Shown piece after piece: positions 12,785 through 28,738 of a stretch of 32,000 nt of DNA. The DNA comes from Erysipelotrichaceae bacterium (lineage in GTDB: Bacteria; Bacillota_I; Bacilli_A; Erysipelotrichales; Erysipelotrichaceae): NCBI GenBank assembly GCA_963663995.1, contig OY760660.1, positions 1,230,001 to 1,262,000 of the forward strand. Direction: 5' to 3'. The notes below the pieces were generated by a model, which saw nothing but the letters and a program-made list of their open reading frames with translations, ran no database searches and was not told where the DNA came from. The translations under genes and the position numbers were made by a program. The first letter of the stretch is position 1, and each line of letters begins with the position of its first letter.

Positions 12785-13075
12785 TTATTTATGAACAACT
12801 ATTTCAATGGAAGCATCTAAACCTTTTAACAATCTAAATAATGTATCCATTTTAGGGATATGTTTCTCACATTCAAACCGAGATATTGCCTGTTGAGATA
12901 ACTTTGTTTTCTCAGCCAGCTCTTTTTGTGATAGTCCCTTGAGTTTTCTAATCTTTATTATCTGATCTGCTAAATCATACTGTTGGCTTATTTTAATATA
13001 CTCTTCTTTAAATCCAGTTTCCTTTAGCTTCTCTTTGATTTTTCTATCAATATCAATCTCTTTAAATGGGCACAT
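12785..13075 (-). CDS. XRE-family HTH antitoxin (HigA-like)
   Basis: 96 aa. LKGLSQKELAEKTKLSQQAISRFECEK is a classic HTH_3 motif. Overlaps the upstream toxin gene by 14 nt. Confidence 0.85.
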   Translation of the reverse strand: MCPFKEIDIDRKIKEKLKETGFKEEYIKISQQYDLADQIIKIRKLKGLSQKELAEKTKLSQQAISRFECEKHIPKMDTLFRLLKGLDASIEIVVHK

Positions 13076-13400
13076 GTTTTAGTAGCTCCTTTTTTCTTTT
13101 TATAGCTTTCTCTATATCTTTTAACTCAGTCTTATTTTTTTGTTTTTTACATGCATGTAATATATATAAGCTATCCATATCAAATGTCATATAAAACAAT
13201 CTGTTAAATCTTCTAAATTTAATTTCCCAAACTTTTTCTCTTAAGTAACGTGTATCCAACAGTTCTAAGTAATCTTTTCCTTGTGTGGAAATATTTTTTA
13301 TTATTTTATAAGCTTCTGCTTTTTCATCATTTGGTAAAGCATCAATAAAACTAAAAATCTCGTCTTTCCCATTTCTTCGACAATAAGTGTATACTTTCAT
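13062..13400 (-). CDS. RelE/ParE-superfamily toxin, Gp49/HigB-like
   Basis: 112 aa from ATG 13400; the ORF-track start at 13406 is a TTG. The toxin-first gene order and the ...WEIKFRRFNRLFYMTF..LYILHACKKQ pattern resemble phage Gp49-like toxins. Confidence 0.75.
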   Translation of the reverse strand: MKVYTYCRRNGKDEIFSFIDALPNDEKAEAYKIIKNISTQGKDYLELLDTRYLREKVWEIKFRRFNRLFYMTFDMDSLYILHACKKQKNKTELKDIEKAIKRKKELLKHVPI

Positions 13401-13411
13401 ATACAAATCTC

Positions 13412-13493: not shown

Positions 13494-13516
13494 AAAAAAG
13501 CGTGACTACTCACGCT
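13494..13516 (-). terminator. Intrinsic terminator after the B12-domain gene
   Basis: agcgtga-ctac-tcacgct hairpin directly after the stop codon (13517..13519), followed on the minus strand by TTTTTT. Confidence 0.7.
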
Positions 13517-15355
13517 TTATGCACAATTTCCTTCAGCATACTCACATCGTGCTTTCGCATCGACTTCTCGATTTTCTTTATCGACTAAAATAACAGATCC
13601 ATTTTGATATCGAGAATCAAAGTAGATCGCATTCACAAAGATTTCTGTTGCGTTATACAAGTAAGGTGTTGGTAGATAGCCTGCTTCATAGATTGTATAG
13701 AATCCTTGTGCACTTAGATAATTATCAACATGTTTTTCAATAGATTTTAAAATAATTCTTGCTTCTGATATGAAGTGCTTTTTCAGTTGCTCAATATCTT
13801 TATCATAAGCACTTAAATCAATCTTATGATTGGCTTTTTGTTTACGATAATAGTCGATGGCAGCACAGGTAATTTGGATGCTTTCATTCATCACTGCAGG
13901 ATTTGCCATAAATAGTGCTTCACTATAAGACACAACATGAACAATTGCAGGACTGTTTTTAATGTGAGGTTCAATATCATCCATTAACATACTTACCATG
14001 GCTAGTTGCACTTTAGCTAAGTCTTCATCTGGTGAAAAGAAATCTAAACCCGCACGCGGTTGAAGAATCACTTTAAAGTTTTTATCTTCTAGTGGTTTTA
14101 TCAATTCTAATATGGCTCGTGCTTTGGCAATATCAGTGATGCCCCAAGTATAGCGCGGAGTATTCAACATCACTTGTAAGATAAAATCTTTTATTCCATG
14201 TTTCTTTGCTAAACGAGCAGCCAAAACAGCCGATAGAATATAGGTCACATCATCGCTTCCTCTAAAAGCAAAGTGGTGTGGTGTATTAGGTTCATATGGT
14301 TTATGGGTGCTTGCGATAAAATCTAAAGCTTTTTCACTTTGTATGAGGTTTGTCAGTAGATCATTAGGACCTCTTCCATCTAATTGATTAAACCACCACA
14401 ATGACATGGCATGCCATGCAATGTTAAGACTTCTTTCATGGATATGAGCTAAATCATCGACATGATTTGTACCTGAATATGTTCGCACTAAAAGAGGTCG
14501 ACTAGCCTCATATATATCGTCATATTCGAATTCATTTTGAATCGGTACACCACCACCATTCGCTAGATTTTCCCAATTTTCATTGAAATGAGATTGAGTT
14601 AATTGCGAAGAACCAATGGAAAGAATATCTAAGTGTTTTGTCTTAGCTAATGTTTTACACCAATCTTTGAATGCTTTTAAAGCTTCTTCACGATTTTGAT
14701 GATAAGGACCAACGTGTAAGCGCGTTAAAGGTAGATCTGATGACTCTTGATGATATTTTAATCTAAGAGTTAATCGATCATGCTTTGTACCATATTCTGG
14801 ATAGTTGGTATTTTTCTTTACGCTAAAGTGTTCTTTATCAAAATCTTGCATAAACGCTTTAGCACAATTCATCAAAGCATGATCATACTTTGATCCTTTG
14901 ATAAGTGATTCTGGTATTTCATCGTCTTCTAAATCTAAAGCTATAAGAACTTCTGCCATTTCTTCTGATCCAACAAAGGTCATCACTTTATCCTTAAAGA
15001 CTTCTTTTATTTTCTGACAGGATTTTGGTAAGCCGGCAAAGTAGATCTTTTTAAGATGACCACCTTCGCTTTCAAAAATATAGTTCTTTTCGCATATTTC
15101 AAAAACAGACTTCACAGTATTTAAAGCATCTTCTTCATCTAAACGATAGGATAAACCTAAATGACTTATATGATGATCCAATAACCAATTAGCGAGTTCT
15201 TCTTTATTTTCGATTTCACCTATATGGTTTGTTTTTGAGATTAGTTCATCGGCTAGAAAGACAATTTGATCACAGGCATTTAACTGACTCTTTATCGCAT
15301 TGATCCCTAAGGTATGTGCATCATGAGTCGGTTTTAAAAGTCCATAGCGTCTCAT
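13517..15355 (-). CDS. Cobalamin-binding-domain protein (N-terminal GlmS/MutS-like B12 domain fused to ~470-aa unknown domain)
   Basis: 612 aa. LLKPTHDAHTLGINAI carries DxHxxG at residues 12-17, placed as in the glutamate mutase S subunit. Later ISHLGLSY and IYFAG segments sit at the SxL/GG positions. There is no CxxxCxxC, so it is not a radical SAM protein. Confidence 0.65.
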   Translation of the reverse strand: MRRYGLLKPTHDAHTLGINAIKSQLNACDQIVFLADELISKTNHIGEIENKEELANWLLDHHISHLGLSYRLDEEDALNTVKSVFEICEKNYIFESEGGHLKKIYFAGLPKSCQKIKEVFKDKVMTFVGSEEMAEVLIALDLEDDEIPESLIKGSKYDHALMNCAKAFMQDFDKEHFSVKKNTNYPEYGTKHDRLTLRLKYHQESSDLPLTRLHVGPYHQNREEALKAFKDWCKTLAKTKHLDILSIGSSQLTQSHFNENWENLANGGGVPIQNEFEYDDIYEASRPLLVRTYSGTNHVDDLAHIHERSLNIAWHAMSLWWFNQLDGRGPNDLLTNLIQSEKALDFIASTHKPYEPNTPHHFAFRGSDDVTYILSAVLAARLAKKHGIKDFILQVMLNTPRYTWGITDIAKARAILELIKPLEDKNFKVILQPRAGLDFFSPDEDLAKVQLAMVSMLMDDIEPHIKNSPAIVHVVSYSEALFMANPAVMNESIQITCAAIDYYRKQKANHKIDLSAYDKDIEQLKKHFISEARIILKSIEKHVDNYLSAQGFYTIYEAGYLPTPYLYNATEIFVNAIYFDSRYQNGSVILVDKENREVDAKARCEYAEGNCA

Positions 15356-16416
15356 TTTGGGAAGTATTCGTCAAAGAATCCTTTCACATCATGTCGGCCG
15401 ATGACACTGAAATCTATATAGTATAAAGAATTTGCTAAATCTAAGACTAATTCCATATGTTTATGTGGCGTTTTCGCTAGTTTTGCTAGTTCTAACATAG
15501 GCACAATACCGGTGGGAATATCTTCATAGATATAACGGGTTGTGATATCTGTTGGTGATAGGATTTCATCATATTGACTGGTTGCTTGAAGCCTTAGGTA
15601 TAAACTATCCCCTTGTGATCCATAAACAATATCCAACCATTCATAAGCACTAGGAATCTTAATTCCAAATGCTTGAGCTAAAGCAAGTCTTTCTTCATCT
15701 AATTTTTCAATCACATTCGCAACTAATGGTGTTATCCCCTCTTTATAGTGATGATAAGAATCTCCGCACTCAATACGCGTAAGATTCATTAAAGCAGGAA
15801 AAGGATGAAACAACATCCCAATATTAGAAAGAGAGGTTGTTAAGACTGATTTTTCCATTTGTATCATATTAAAACTAGGTTTTAAACATTGATAGATAAT
15901 CTCACTGTGTTGTGGGTTTAATGCAGCAACTCTCAGTTTTTTCTTACGTGAAAAGATTTGTGATACACCCGGTCTAACTCGTCTGGATGTTAAAACAAAG
16001 GTATCTGTTTCACAGATTGGGATATCTAAATCACAACCAGCATTCACTAAGTATTGTTTAAATAAGTAAGCCCCTAAAGTGCGTCCAGGATTTATCACAA
16101 TTTTATGGGTTTCATTAAGAAGAGGAGCCATTTGTATGGCGATGTCTTCATGGGCATGTGCGGGTATACAAATCATAATAATTTCTGATTGATCCAAGGC
16201 ATCTTTTAAAACATGAGTTGCTTTGATATTTCTAACCATTGTCTCAATCATGCCGTGCAGTTGAACGCCTCCCATTGAATTAATTTGATCAATGACGGTT
16301 TTTGTTCGATTGAATAAAATTGTAGGATTTGATAAGTGTGCTAAGTATGCGGCTAATGCTTGGCCTCCGTGACCGGCCCCAATAACACAATATTTTTGTT
16401 GTTTAAGACTTGTCAT
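15352..16416 (-). CDS. NAD(P)-dependent opine (octopine/nopaline) dehydrogenase-family oxidoreductase
   Basis: Start refined to MTSLKQQKYCVIGAGHGGQALAAYLA (ATG 16416, AGGAGG 6 nt upstream). Rossmann GxGxxG; length and layout fit the ODH family. ATGA overlap with the downstream gene. Confidence 0.75.
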   Translation of the reverse strand: MTSLKQQKYCVIGAGHGGQALAAYLAHLSNPTILFNRTKTVIDQINSMGGVQLHGMIETMVRNIKATHVLKDALDQSEIIMICIPAHAHEDIAIQMAPLLNETHKIVINPGRTLGAYLFKQYLVNAGCDLDIPICETDTFVLTSRRVRPGVSQIFSRKKKLRVAALNPQHSEIIYQCLKPSFNMIQMEKSVLTTSLSNIGMLFHPFPALMNLTRIECGDSYHHYKEGITPLVANVIEKLDEERLALAQAFGIKIPSAYEWLDIVYGSQGDSLYLRLQATSQYDEILSPTDITTRYIYEDIPTGIVPMLELAKLAKTPHKHMELVLDLANSLYYIDFSVIGRHDVKGFFDEYFPK

Positions 16417-23194: not shown

Positions 23195-24070
23195 TTAGAC
23201 CAGGGAATCTTTATTGAATATCTCCATTGTTTGATTAAAAACATCGGTTACTGCTTTTTTTGCTTCACAATCTACATCAACGATTGTTAAGGCGTTGTTA
23301 ATTGCCTTAATAGCTTTTGTATCATATGGAATTTTACCAACAAATGGTAGATGATTTTTTTTACAATAATCTTGGATTTTTTCTGTATAATCTAAATTTA
23401 CATCATATTTATTTACGCATATACAAATTTTTGTTTGAAATTTTTGTGCCGTGTGAATAATTCGTTCCATATCACTAATCCCTGACAAAGAAGGTTCTGT
23501 GACAATTAGAACCATATCAACTCCGCTTAATGAGGCAATAACTGGACAACCAATACCTGGTGATCCATCGATGATTGATATATCTACATCTTCTGCATTG
23601 TTCTTCATTTGTTTTTTTACATCTGTAACTAACATACCCGAATTACCACTACCCATTTTTAATTGAGCCGTTGAAAATGTACTATGATTTTTAAATAACT
23701 TAATTTCACCATTAATCGATGGTCGCATTGTTATGGCGTTGCTTGGGCAAACTAATTCACAAACAGCACACCCTTCACATGCATTCTCATCAATGTGATA
23801 TTGATTATTTACATATATCGCATCAAATCGACACGCTTGTTTGCAAAGACCACATTGCGCACATCGTTCTGAATCTATTTCAGCTTTGGGTAAGCCATAG
23901 TAATCTGTTTTTACTACTTTTGCATTTTGACTCAAGACTAAATGAAGATTTGGTGCATCCACATCGCAATCTGCATATGCTTTAGCATCTAAAATTTTTA
24001 TAAAAGCACTACTAACGGTTGTCTTCCCCGTTCCACCTTTACCACTAAGGACGAGAAGCTGTCGCATCAT
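23195..24070 (-). CDS. MinD/Mrp-type P-loop ATPase with inserted 2x[4Fe-4S] ferredoxin domain (COG1149-like), copy B
   Basis: GKGGTGKT; CAQCGLCKQACRFDAI and CEGCAVCELVCPSNAI (CxxCxxCxxxC x2). AAGGAGG RBS. The start may be the second ATG (24067). Confidence 0.88.
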   Translation of the reverse strand: MMRQLLVLSGKGGTGKTTVSSAFIKILDAKAYADCDVDAPNLHLVLSQNAKVVKTDYYGLPKAEIDSERCAQCGLCKQACRFDAIYVNNQYHIDENACEGCAVCELVCPSNAITMRPSINGEIKLFKNHSTFSTAQLKMGSGNSGMLVTDVKKQMKNNAEDVDISIIDGSPGIGCPVIASLSGVDMVLIVTEPSLSGISDMERIIHTAQKFQTKICICVNKYDVNLDYTEKIQDYCKKNHLPFVGKIPYDTKAIKAINNALTIVDVDCEAKKAVTDVFNQTMEIFNKDSLV

Positions 24071-24944
24071 TTACCTCCTTAATAACAACATTGAGTAATG
24101 AAGTGAATAGTTCTTTAAACTTTTCATCTTCTCTCACTGATATGAGCGCATTTGAATTTAAATGGCCTAATGTTGTATCAAATGGAATCCTCCCTAAAAT
24201 ATCAATTTTATTCTCAATACAGTATTTCTCGGATGGATTATCCTTATTTACATATTTATTTAAAATTACTCCATGCGGTTTCTTAAATACTTTCACTAGT
24301 TCAGTCACCATATTCAGATTATGTGATCCAAAAATACTTGGCTCAGCTACTAATATACAATAATCAACATCCTTAATGCTTTCCATAACAACACACGAAC
24401 TACCAGGAGGACAATCAATAAAAGTTATTTCATTATTATCTTGTATGCCTTCAATTAGTTTTTTTATTATTGGCACTCCAGATTCTTCACCTGTGTTTAA
24501 AATTCCACTCTTAACAAATACATTGTCTGCGTAACCTTTTTGAACTTCCCCAATTTTCTTATCTTTTTCACTTATTGCTTTTTCAGGGCAAATTAAAGAA
24601 CACCCACCACATGAATGACAAACATCTTCAAAAACATGTAGTTTAGGTGAAATATAAGCTAAGGCATTAAAACGACAAAAATCGACACACTTTCGACAAC
24701 CGTTGCATAAATCAGGATTCACTACAGGAATCTTCACTTTAACATCTTCGATTTCAATGTTCGATGGTTTAAAGAAAAGATGCCCATTGGGTTCTTCTAC
24801 ATCACAATCAATATAATTTGATTTAAGTGACGCTGCTGCTAAATTAACAGATACAAGGGTTTTACCAGTACCACCCTTACCACTTAATACAGCAATTTTT
24901 AATGAATTAGTGGCCATCGGTATGGAAACCTGCGTGAATTTCAT
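24045..24944 (-). CDS. MinD/Mrp-type P-loop ATPase with inserted 2x[4Fe-4S] ferredoxin domain, copy A
   Basis: GKGGTGKT; CNGCRKCVDFCRFNAL and CHSCGGCSLICPEKAI. A start at 24917 (MATNSLKIAVLSGKGG) is more likely and would cut the overlap with the upstream gene from 38 to 11 nt. Confidence 0.88.
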   Translation of the reverse strand: MKFTQVSIPMATNSLKIAVLSGKGGTGKTLVSVNLAAASLKSNYIDCDVEEPNGHLFFKPSNIEIEDVKVKIPVVNPDLCNGCRKCVDFCRFNALAYISPKLHVFEDVCHSCGGCSLICPEKAISEKDKKIGEVQKGYADNVFVKSGILNTGEESGVPIIKKLIEGIQDNNEITFIDCPPGSSCVVMESIKDVDYCILVAEPSIFGSHNLNMVTELVKVFKKPHGVILNKYVNKDNPSEKYCIENKIDILGRIPFDTTLGHLNSNALISVREDEKFKELFTSLLNVVIKEVNDATASRP

Positions 24945-25272
24945 TTAAAGGTTTTAAATGTCCTTCTTTAAAAGAATTAATGTTTTCCATAATAGTAGAA
25001 CTATTTGTTTTAAAAATTTGTATATGGGCTGCACTTAATACTTTGGCTGCATTTTCACCACATTGTGGCGTTAATAATGCATCAACTTGAGCATCTACGA
25101 TAATTTGGGCTGCCTTAATACCTGCCCCACCTTGTGCACTCATAGCGTGATTATCAATATAATCACTTTCTTGTGTGTCTGTATCGTAAATTAGGTAAAA
25201 AAGTGTTCTTGCAAATGTAGTGCTAATGTTGCTTTCTAAATTCTGATCTGTAACTGGTAACGCTATTTTCAT
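24907..25272 (-). CDS. NifB/NifX-family (dinitrogenase FeMo-cofactor-binding fold) protein
   Basis: 121 aa. MKIALPV..., GGAGIKAAQIIVDAQVDALLTPQCGENAAKVLSAAHIQIF matches the family pattern. ATGA overlap with the DUF134 gene. Confidence 0.82.
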   Translation of the reverse strand: MKIALPVTDQNLESNISTTFARTLFYLIYDTDTQESDYIDNHAMSAQGGAGIKAAQIIVDAQVDALLTPQCGENAAKVLSAAHIQIFKTNSSTIMENINSFKEGHLKPLNEIHAGFHTDGH

Positions 25273-25661
25273 TTATGATTTCCTCTACGATTTCTTCTCC
25301 CTTGTCCTAGATTGTTTTGACAACGGCTTCGATGGCAATTTCCACAAGCTTTTAGACGTTCGTTTTCGTCATAAAGTTGGTAGTCTCCACCTTCGATTCT
25401 TAAATTAGTTCCATTAATTAATGACTCAGCAATCTTTTGTCTTGCACTTTTATAGATAGCTTGCACGGTAGCTCTAGCTACTTGCATTTTATCAGCACAC
25501 TCTTCTTGTATAAGCTCTTCAAAATCAATTAATCGAATACATTCGTATTCTTCTAGACTCATGATAATTGTTTTAGGTTGTGGATCTACTTGATATAAGG
25601 GACCATAATCTAATCGTTCAGGCATACAGCAGACTCTACGCATTTTTCTAGGTCTTGGCAT
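25269..25661 (-). CDS. DUF134 (UPF0251) predicted DNA-binding protein
   Basis: The MPRPRKMRRVCCMPE N-terminus is the family hallmark. Sigma-70 region-4-like HTH (ECADKMQVARATVQAIYKSARQKIAE). Cys/Arg-rich tail CGNCHRSRC. Confidence 0.82.
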   Translation of the reverse strand: MPRPRKMRRVCCMPERLDYGPLYQVDPQPKTIIMSLEEYECIRLIDFEELIQEECADKMQVARATVQAIYKSARQKIAESLINGTNLRIEGGDYQLYDENERLKACGNCHRSRCQNNLGQGRRNRRGNHK

Positions 25662-27670: not shown

Positions 27671-28738
27671 TTAACTTAATGATTTTTCATCGATAATTTC
27701 AATATCAATTATTTCTTTATATGACTCAGGATCACTTAATCTAAGTTCCATAAAACTTTTCTTTAATTTACTACAACTTGGTTTGAAAGTTGCATAAGTT
27801 AAGCCACCTGAGACAAGTCCTCCAACAATTGGAACAACTTTTGATACACCTTTAGCAAAGATTGCTTTAGTCATATTTGCCCCTAACTTAGTAGCGATAC
27901 TTTTCACTATTGGATAATAGGCAGTTTTAGTTAACGCTTTAGCAGCAAGAGATTTCGCGACTTTTGCGGTTGCTAATTCTGCAATAGTTGCTACCCCTTT
28001 ATTTGCCCCTTGTACTCCAAACATGACTCCCATAAATATCATAAGTTCATTTAATGTATCATCATTGATATCTGATTCATCCAATTGTAGTTCATCAAAT
28101 CCATATAAGTATGCCAATTTTTGTAGAACTCGAACAACATGTCCAAAGTATTGAGCAATATCGGCAGGAATTGTAGCTGCCATGGTTAACCCACCTGGAA
28201 ATCCAGCTGCGAATGAAATTGCAGAAACTTTGTTTGTCTCAAAATTGATAATTTGATCAGCTATTTCGTTAATTTTTTTTCTTTCAATTCCTGCATATGC
28301 TGGATTCTTTTCAATTGCTAAAATAACTTGTTCATTTGGATAATATTTAATTAATTCTTTTTTAAGAAATTGATCTCTCTCGACCTTCATTCCAGGAATT
28401 TTTATGACTTGCTTAATAATTGTTTCAGGTTCTATTTCATACTGAGACCAGTCTGTTTCTTTTATTTTTGTTGAGACAACATCATAAGCTTCGACACTTT
28501 TCTCCCCAACAAATTTTGAACCATCAACAATTGCTTTGCCCGCCACTTTTCCTGTGCTTACTGCTACTTGTCCAACAACTGCTGCAGTTTTCTCGATATT
28601 CTCTTTTGTGATTCCCACACTGACAGCTGCTGCTTCAACTTTTTTTGCAGCTTCGCCTACACTTGTTGCTGCTTTGTTAATCTCTTCCACTGCACTATTA
28701 AACTTTTCTAAGACGTTTATTTTCTTTTTTGTTGCCAT
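27671..28738 (-). CDS. EcsC-family protein with N-terminal Ala/Val/Lys-rich extension
   Basis: FAAGFPGGLTMAATIPADIAQYFGHVVRVLQKLAYLYGF parallels the B. subtilis EcsC core (GGxxGxGGL...IPA...RVxQxxAxxYGF), recalled from memory. AGGGGG RBS. Confidence 0.7.
   Translation of the reverse strand: MATKKKINVLEKFNSAVEEINKAATSVGEAAKKVEAAAVSVGITKENIEKTAAVVGQVAVSTGKVAGKAIVDGSKFVGEKSVEAYDVVSTKIKETDWSQYEIEPETIIKQVIKIPGMKVERDQFLKKELIKYYPNEQVILAIEKNPAYAGIERKKINEIADQIINFETNKVSAISFAAGFPGGLTMAATIPADIAQYFGHVVRVLQKLAYLYGFDELQLDESDINDDTLNELMIFMGVMFGVQGANKGVATIAELATAKVAKSLAAKALTKTAYYPIVKSIATKLGANMTKAIFAKGVSKVVPIVGGLVSGGLTYATFKPSCSKLKKSFMELRLSDPESYKEIIDIEIIDEKSLS

What the first reader, a model, noticed from the sequence alone, without database searches (positions are those of the whole stretch)
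13517..16416. Opine-dehydrogenase-family gene translationally coupled to a 612-aa B12-domain fusion protein
Seen in sequence: the two genes share an ATGA overlap (15352..15355), one AGGAGG-led start and one terminator. The second protein starts with a GlmS/MutS-like cobalamin domain (DAHTLG = DxHxxG at residues 12-17) followed by ~470 aa with no radical SAM motif. Its total size roughly equals the glutamate mutase S+E subunits fused. Established knowledge: base-off/His-on DxHxxG domains occur in carbon-skeleton mutases, aminomutases and corrinoid methyltransferases. ODH-family enzymes reductively condense or oxidatively split amino-acid/keto-acid adducts. Inference: the pair may form a two-step pathway for an unusual amino acid or opine-like compound (B12-dependent rearrangement plus NAD(P)-linked oxidation). 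I know of no characterised example of this pairing. No adenosyltransferase or reactivase is nearby.
Basis: partly seen in the sequence, partly recalled or inferred. Interest (0 to 1): 0.6.

Follow-up and report, generated by a model that had tools for sequence, protein, structure and literature searches.

The report
Orphan B12 mutase with opine dehydrogenase
Two overlapping genes encode an opine dehydrogenase tuned to acidic amino acids and a one-piece vitamin-B12 radical enzyme built like glutamate mutase but with a different substrate pocket; the pair is widespread in bacteria and was flagged in 2009, and its reaction is still unknown.

Summary
Observation confirmed. The 612-aa protein models confidently (pLDDT 94.5). 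It has an N-terminal cobalamin Rossmann domain with DxHxxG, fused to a barrel closest to glutamate mutase E (Z 28.5; lysine aminomutase tied at 27.6). The probable adenosyl-binding glutamate (E479) is kept; the glutamate-binding arginine claw apparently is not. The aminomutase PLP lysine is absent. Relatives are fused to, or flanked by, the mutase reactivase GlmL. The dehydrogenase has the Arg/Gly signature shown to select Asp/Glu, as do all 137 partner enzymes checked. The pairing is conserved: 135 of 160 loci carry the dehydrogenase, and all 17 tested genomes with a lone mutase gene encode it elsewhere. Neighbours (ATP-grasp ligases, amidotransferases, amino-sugar loci, c-di-AMP riboswitches) suggest synthesis of an unusual acidic opine, used as a solute or surface decoration. 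Substrate and step order are inferred, not shown. The family and its pairing were predicted in 2009 (PMC2667541); I found no characterisation since. This genome has a PduO adenosyltransferase elsewhere. The scan noted this pair before on other DNA (35 findings).

The parts
15352..16416 (-). Opine dehydrogenase gene (354 aa) of the acidic-amino-acid type: R112/G200 correspond to Arthrobacter ODH positions 111/198, and R37 marks NADPH acceptance
   Evidence: PF02317 E 1.6e-39; 1bg6 E 5.6e-55 with residue alignment; specificity rules from PMC10787698
16422..16427 (-). AGGAGG ribosome-binding site of the ODH gene
   Evidence: sequence
15352..15355 (-). ATGA stop/start overlap, implying translational coupling
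   Evidence: sequence; commonest junction in relatives
13517..15355 (-). Single-chain adenosylcobalamin mutase-like gene (612 aa)
   Evidence: AF2 pLDDT 94.5, pTM 0.92; at least 3453 homologues
14921..15355 (-). Cobalamin-binding Rossmann domain, residues ~1-145
   Evidence: VIA Z 14.6 (rmsd 2.0, 122 aligned) to 4r3u_D and 13.7 to IcmF; 24 of 50 homologues match PF02310 weakly
15305..15322 (-). DxHxxG motif (D12-G17); H14 is the predicted cobalt ligand
13538..14788 (-). Glutamate-mutase-E-like TIM barrel, residues ~190-606
   Evidence: VIA Z 28.5, rmsd 3.2, 376 aligned to 1cb7_B; Foldseek E 3.5e-13
13919..13921 (-). E479, probable counterpart of GlmE E330 (binds the adenosyl ribose)
   Evidence: motif position after strand 8 and profile alignment with low posterior; present in 203 of 207 members; role of E330
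13494..13518 (-). Intrinsic-terminator-like hairpin with U-tract

Best explanation
A two-enzyme biosynthetic module for an unusual, branched acidic opine. (1) The dehydrogenase uses NADPH to join pyruvate to L-glutamate or a close acidic amino acid. This is shown for homologues with the same two residues and inferred here. (2) The 612-aa enzyme binds adenosylcobalamin base-off through H14. It breaks the Co-C bond with help from E479, and the adenosyl radical drives a 1,2 carbon-skeleton shift as in glutamate mutase (inferred from fold, motif and GlmL links). (3) The glutamate claw is remodelled and five other arginines are conserved family-wide, so I favour the tricarboxylic opine itself as the mutase substrate. 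An example would be N-(1-carboxyethyl)glutamate converted to N-(1-carboxyethyl)-3-methylaspartate (inference, about 0.3 for this exact reaction). (4) In this genome the product probably stays free as an anionic solute. In other lineages it is amidated, or ligated to an amino sugar or peptide. Component odds: AdoCbl radical isomerase 0.85; both enzymes in one pathway 0.9; biosynthetic direction 0.65.
For: Fold: glutamate mutase E is the top hit, and the top 20 rows are all AdoCbl isomerases. The N-domain best matches mutase B12 domains. The reactivase GlmL is fused in P0169, P0214 and P0179 and adjacent in five further loci; one passes the GlmL cut-off (596 vs 475 bits). Own genome has PduO and NrdJ. 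All 137 partner ODHs carry R112+G200, the pair shown to switch specificity to Asp/Glu. Co-occurrence: 135 of 160 loci; 17 of 17 lone-mutase genomes have a strong ODH hit elsewhere. Within the host family, the 5 of 121 genomes with the mutase are exactly those with a close ODH. Biosynthetic neighbours: Ddl-like ligases (about 22 loci), asparagine-synthase-like genes (12), and amino-sugar aminotransferase plus ATP-grasp cassettes (7). One mutase is fused to an ATP-grasp domain and followed by an amidotransferase. c-di-AMP riboswitches lead the operon in 8 of 11 Firmicutes loci tested (7 of them were also found by the motif scan).
Against: No biochemistry exists for either protein. Active-site mapping rests on about 18%-identity profile alignments with low posteriors, and R149 may map to R291 instead of Y293. 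Lysine 5,6-aminomutase is tied with glutamate mutase in Z (27.6 vs 28.5). The window has no accessory gene, and no c-di-AMP riboswitch was found in this genome, so the solute role is borrowed from relatives. No GlmL or MeaB was found in this genome. Characterised ODHs of this type work best on plain Asp, which cannot undergo a glutamate-mutase-type shift; this fits the mutase-first rival.
Confidence: 0.42

Rival explanations
1. Mutase first: the B12 enzyme rearranges a free acid (glutamate to 3-methylaspartate, or a homologue or keto acid), and the ODH then caps the product with pyruvate, pulling the equilibrium.
For: Glutamate mutase is the nearest fold. ODHs of this type prefer Asp over Glu, and 3-methylaspartate is an Asp analogue. 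GlmL association.
Against: R66, R100 and E171 of the glutamate site (roles) have no like counterparts. A same-family genome (G196) carries both true GlmE and this pair, which suggests different jobs.
Confidence: 0.22
2. Catabolic route: an environmental opine or amino-polycarboxylate is rearranged by the mutase and split oxidatively by the ODH to pyruvate plus Asp or Glu.
For: ODH reactions are reversible (established knowledge). One locus has a GntR regulator upstream, and another has fumarase-like and malic-enzyme-like genes downstream (read from sequence). An earlier scan note describes TRAP importers around the pair (not tested here).
Against: No transporter is a recurrent co-oriented neighbour. 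No methylaspartate ammonia-lyase in this genome. The NADPH signature, ligases, amidotransferases and glycan loci point to synthesis.
Confidence: 0.15
3. PLP-free aminomutase: the pyruvate imine of the amino acid (the ODH intermediate) replaces PLP as the electron sink for a 1,2 amino shift, giving a beta-amino-acid opine such as a beta-glutamate derivative.
For: Aminomutase barrels score Z 24.5-27.6. The PLP lysine is missing (position H+11 is Leu). The gene never occurs without an ODH in the genomes tested. beta-Glutamate is a known osmolyte (own knowledge).
Against: No precedent that I know of. A free imine is unstable in water. In Tissierellia the two genes are unlinked.
Confidence: 0.1
4. 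Corrinoid methyltransferase-type protein acting on an opine.
For: The B12 domain also resembles corrinoid proteins and MetH (Z 12-12.8). Some databases name homologues 'methionine synthase'.
Against: Pterin-binding (DHPS-type) barrels score only Z about 16, against 28.5 for GlmE. There is no helical cap domain before the Rossmann fold. GlmL fusions are a mutase feature.
Confidence: 0.04

Closest known systems
Glutamate (methylaspartate) mutase GlmS/GlmE with GlmL, Clostridium cochlearium (PDB 1CB7, 6H9E; EC 5.4.99.1; PF02310 + PF06368)
   Same: DxHxxG Rossmann domain plus a collinear TIM barrel (Z 28.5, 376 residues); probable E330 counterpart; GlmL association in relatives.
   Different: One chain in S-E order; about 17% identity; no PF06368 hit for this protein; arginine claw and E171 apparently not kept; tied to an ODH instead of methylaspartate ammonia-lyase.
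'Novel B12-dependent protein family' of Zhang et al. 2009 (PMC2667541)
   Same: N-terminal B12 domain, always next to PF02317, with Ddl and asparagine synthase nearby; Clostridia and Lactobacillales among the hosts.
   Different: It was a prediction from 11 genomes, with no mutase fold, reactivase link, ODH specificity or riboswitch described. Its sequences could not be retrieved to confirm identity directly.
[quoted passage not shown]
   Same: Barrel fold (Z 24.5-27.6); DAHT-G cobalamin loop like KamE.
   Different: No PLP-anchoring lysine; B12 domain is N-terminal and in the same chain.
Acidic-amino-acid opine dehydrogenases (mODHs; PMC10787698) and Arthrobacter ODH (1BG6)
   Same: Fold, catalytic His region, R/G specificity pair, Arg at the NADPH position.
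   Different: mODHs were studied as biocatalysts with no genomic context. This work suggests their natural partner is the B12 enzyme.
IcmF and acyl-CoA mutases (4XC6, 1REQ, 4R3U)
   Same: B12 domain fold; N-terminal B12 domain order as in IcmF.
   Different: No MeaB G-protein domain or gene; barrel Z only 16-20.

Membership tests
Base-off/His-on cobalamin-binding domain | DxHxxG in a five-stranded Rossmann fold with downstream SxL and GG motifs | tested here: met
   D12-H14-G17, S69-x-x-L72 and A107-G108 align with mutase B12 domains; Z 14.6 to 4r3u_D
Base-off/His-on cobalamin-binding domain | Binds a corrinoid | not testable with these tools
   needs spectroscopy
AdoCbl carbon-skeleton mutases | Mutase-type TIM barrel | tested here: met
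AdoCbl carbon-skeleton mutases | Ribose-binding glutamate after strand 8 (GlmE E330, MCM E370) | tested here: inconclusive
   E479 is in 203 of 207 members and at the right motif position; two of three local profile alignments place it on E330, with low posterior
Glutamate mutase GlmE | Family profile PF06368 above cut-off | tested here: not met
   no hit for this protein; only one distant relative passes narrowly (27.5 vs 26.6 bits)
Glutamate mutase GlmE | Arginine claw R66/R100/R149 and E171 | tested here: not met
   R66 maps to H214 in every local alignment; R100 maps to Q254 or a gap; R149 maps to Y293 (or R291 in one alignment); E171 has no acidic match. Sequence-profile evidence only
Glutamate mutase GlmE | Pathway partner methylaspartate ammonia-lyase | tested here: not met
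   no match above cut-off in the complete genome; not a recurrent neighbour
PLP-dependent B12 aminomutases | PLP-binding lysine on the Rossmann domain, 11 residues after the His ligand (own knowledge of KamE K144) | tested here: not met
   position is Leu25; the only family-wide lysine is K411, on a barrel helix
B12-dependent radical SAM enzymes | CxxxCxxC cluster motif | tested here: not met
   no conserved cysteine
Corrinoid methyltransferases | Cap domain and a pterin- or zinc-binding barrel | tested here: inconclusive
   no cap domain; DHPS-type barrels Z about 16 vs 28.5; absence from a ranked list does not exclude
Opine dehydrogenases PF02317, acidic type | PF02317 plus Arg111/Gly198 (ArODH numbering) | tested here: met
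   135.8 bits vs cut-off 30; R112/G200
Zhang 2009 predicted family | N-terminal B12 domain, ODH adjacency, Ddl and Asn-synthase neighbours | tested here: met
Zhang 2009 predicted family | Sequence identity to the 11 listed proteins | not testable with these tools
   the figure is not held, and the motifs were not found in the (truncated) supplements

The most novel reading that the evidence does not exclude
A new reaction type for coenzyme B12. One form is a mutase acting on an N-alkylated opine skeleton. The most radical form is a PLP-independent aminomutase that uses a pyruvate imine as its electron sink. Either would make an undescribed osmoregulated solute and glycan substituent across many bacterial phyla.
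Probability: 0.35. Interest if true: 0.82.

Novelty: new variant of a known kind. Interest (0 to 1): 0.6.

Why it matters
Only about a dozen adenosylcobalamin isomerase reactions are known (own knowledge). This family is large: at least 3453 and 6054 sequence clusters in two capped searches. It has no Pfam model of its own, and where it is named at all it is a generic cobalamin-binding protein or 'methionine synthase'. Defining its reaction would add a B12 enzyme class and give the biocatalytically useful acidic opine dehydrogenases a natural role. It would probably also reveal an unknown solute and surface-glycan substituent. The window holds the minimal two-gene form, which makes a direct test simple.

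Tried and rejected
Pfam, NCBIfam and PDB sequence searches with the single protein gave nothing meaningful, and the close-homologue profile gave no PDB hit. Complex prediction of mutase with ODH gave no verdict; it is not used as evidence either way. No match among plasmids. No Rfam element in the window, and no c-di-AMP riboswitch in this genome or four Erysipelotrichaceae-type relatives or in 13 further loci. CobA, MutL, MeaB, GlmE and methylaspartate ammonia-lyase were not found in this genome. I considered the pair as a D-aspartate source and set that aside, because the genome has a separate racemase-like and ligase-like pair near G000:1216861 (read from sequence only). P0253, an apparent ODH-mutase fusion, sits at a contig end and does not translate cleanly, so it is not counted. 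Literature searches found only the 2009 paper linking the two families and no known glycan substituent matching the predicted product. The tree-distance correlations (r 0.85 and 0.88) are inflated by shared host ancestry and are treated only as consistent with co-inheritance.

Full report
Observation. The two minus-strand genes are as described. The opine dehydrogenase (ODH) gene runs 16416..15352, with AGGAGG five bases before its ATG. The 612-codon gene runs 15355..13517 and overlaps the first by ATGA. A hairpin with a U-tract overlaps its stop codon. The flanks are unrelated: a divergent ABC exporter upstream and a Gp49/HTH toxin-antitoxin-like pair downstream. The host appears to be an Erysipelotrichaceae-type bacterium, judging by the nearest loci, with a complete 1.95-Mb genome.

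The first gene. It matches PF02317 and Arthrobacter ODH 1BG6. The alignment places R112 and G200 on ArODH positions 111 and 198. Telek et al. showed by reciprocal double mutants that Arg/Gly at these positions switches specificity from apolar amino acids to aspartate. Such enzymes prefer L-Asp and L-Glu with pyruvate (PMC10787698). R37 corresponds to position 35, where Arg marks NADPH acceptance. All 137 full-length ODHs found beside family members carry R+G. The distant ODHs of related genomes that lack the B12 gene did not show the motif in my scan.

The second gene. Alone it hits no family, but it has thousands of full-length homologues and a more distant clade with CxHxxG in place of DxHxxG. 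The AF2 model is confident. Residues 1-145, folded alone, match mutase cobalamin domains best (Z 14.6). Residues 190-606 match glutamate mutase E (Z 28.5, rmsd 3.2, 376 aligned). Lysine aminomutase is tied at 27.6, acyl-CoA mutases score 16-20, and pterin-type barrels about 16. Profile alignment to GlmE is collinear over about 400 columns (E 2e-5). With 1CB7 numbering, G68, G151-T152 and probably E330 and E214 are kept. E330 binds the adenosyl ribose. The arginine claw R66/R100/R149 and E171 that grip glutamate are apparently not kept: R66 becomes His, R100 has no counterpart, R149 aligns to Tyr293 or, in one alignment, Arg291, and E171 has no acidic match. R212, R291, R328, R365 and R434 are instead nearly invariant across 207 members. 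R212, and probably R291, lie two residues earlier on the strands that carry R66 and R149. I infer a deeper, more cationic pocket. These mappings are low-posterior and need a structural superposition. There is no conserved cysteine and no aminomutase PLP lysine. Three relatives are fused to the mutase reactivase GlmL/MutL, and five further loci have it adjacent. This is independent evidence for adenosylcobalamin radical chemistry. This genome lacks GlmL and MeaB but has PduO beside a B12-dependent ribonucleotide reductase, and a MetH-sized protein with DxHxxG, so the cofactor should be available.

The pairing. Of 80 genome loci, 58 have the ODH directly adjacent and 3 more have it nearby. Of 80 metagenome loci of the distant clade, 68 have it adjacent and 6 nearby; the other 6 are cut short. 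All 17 tested genomes with a lone mutase gene encode a strong ODH hit elsewhere. In several Tissierellia that ODH sits where a distant-clade mutase gene has been lost, with remnants in one. This suggests that the two clades do the same job. In the host family the pair is patchy (5 of 121), and the two genes always occur together. A same-genus genome lacks the pair but has true GlmE, and another genome of the family has both. Tree distances correlate (r 0.85-0.88), which shared ancestry alone would partly produce.

What it makes. Recurrent neighbours are Ddl-like ATP-grasp ligases (about 22 loci) and asparagine-synthase-like amidotransferases (12). In 7 polysaccharide loci, from Bacteroidota, a clostridium and others, there is an amino-sugar aminotransferase plus ATP-grasp cassette. 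One mutase is fused to an ATP-grasp domain and followed by an amidotransferase. Opine-type acyl groups on 4-amino sugars exist, for example alanopine in Providencia O35. Following a lead from earlier scan notes, I confirmed c-di-AMP riboswitches at the head of the operon in 8 of 11 Firmicutes loci tested. A motif scan found the element before 13 pair loci and 14 unlinked ODH genes. These riboswitches are off-switches that, in Bacillales and Clostridia, mostly lead ion, osmoprotectant and amino-acid transport genes (PMC9960051). Together this favours a biosynthetic product that is an acid, sometimes amidated or ligated, and sometimes linked to osmotic control. None of these extras is present at this locus, which is the minimal two-gene form.

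Mechanism. Shown by computation: the domain folds, the motifs, the specificity signature and the co-occurrence. Inferred: NADPH-dependent condensation of pyruvate with an acidic amino acid, and an AdoCbl radical 1,2-shift. My preferred order has the mutase act on the tricarboxylic opine; I put the pathway at 0.42 and the specific Glu-to-methylaspartate opine reaction at about 0.3. Rivals are mutase first on a free acid (0.22), catabolism (0.15), a PLP-free amino shift through the pyruvate imine (0.1) and methyl transfer (0.04).

What is known. Zhang et al. 2009 predicted a novel B12-dependent family always adjacent to PF02317, with Ddl and asparagine synthase nearby, and asked for experiments. 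I found no later paper on it. The protein works like glutamate mutase but fails that family's membership tests. The scan has noted this pair before on other genomes; those notes were used as leads and re-tested where stated. Verdict: real, an uncharacterised variant of the AdoCbl mutases with a defined partner and a direct assay; interest 0.6.

Noticed in passing
window 12785-13406 (-): Gp49/DUF891 (RelE-like) gene plus HTH_3 gene, a probable type II toxin-antitoxin pair right after the terminator; present in the nearest relative L001 but not in L007.
   Followed up: partly
G000:C1:1508497-1511940 (L081): PduO adenosyltransferase gene between a B12-dependent ribonucleotide reductase and two small genes, one resembling an ECF cobalamin S component (read from sequence only).
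   Followed up: partly
L212, L213, L215, L217, L223, L224 vs L147, L220: In Tissierellia the riboswitch-led ODH remains while the CxHxxG-clade mutase gene behind it is lost (remnants in L223); a DxHxxG-clade gene stands elsewhere. Likely paralogue replacement.
   Followed up: partly
P0136 (L113), P0142, P0147: Full-length family members that lack the DxHxxG histidine; P0136 has no ODH nearby. Possibly inactive or repurposed copies.
   Followed up: no
P0190: Family member fused to a weak Peptidase M15 domain.
   Followed up: no
L191:1872-9638: Largest cassette seen: c-di-AMP riboswitch, ODH, Ddl-like ligase, small gene, GlmL, second ODH, mutase.
   Followed up: partly
L238 / L064: The ODH gene is split by an internal TAG in one Erysipelothrix MAG while the mutase gene is intact.
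   Followed up: no
G000:C1:1215361-1218873 (L206): ATP-grasp ligase and aspartate-racemase-like gene inside a sugar-nucleotide locus about 13 kb before the window (read from sequence).
   Followed up: no
window 23195-25661 (-): Two MinD/ParA-type ATPases with 4Fe-4S domains, a NifB/NifX-like gene and DUF134: a common anaerobe cluster.
   Followed up: no
window 27671-28738 (-): 355-aa ORF with no Pfam match.
   Followed up: no
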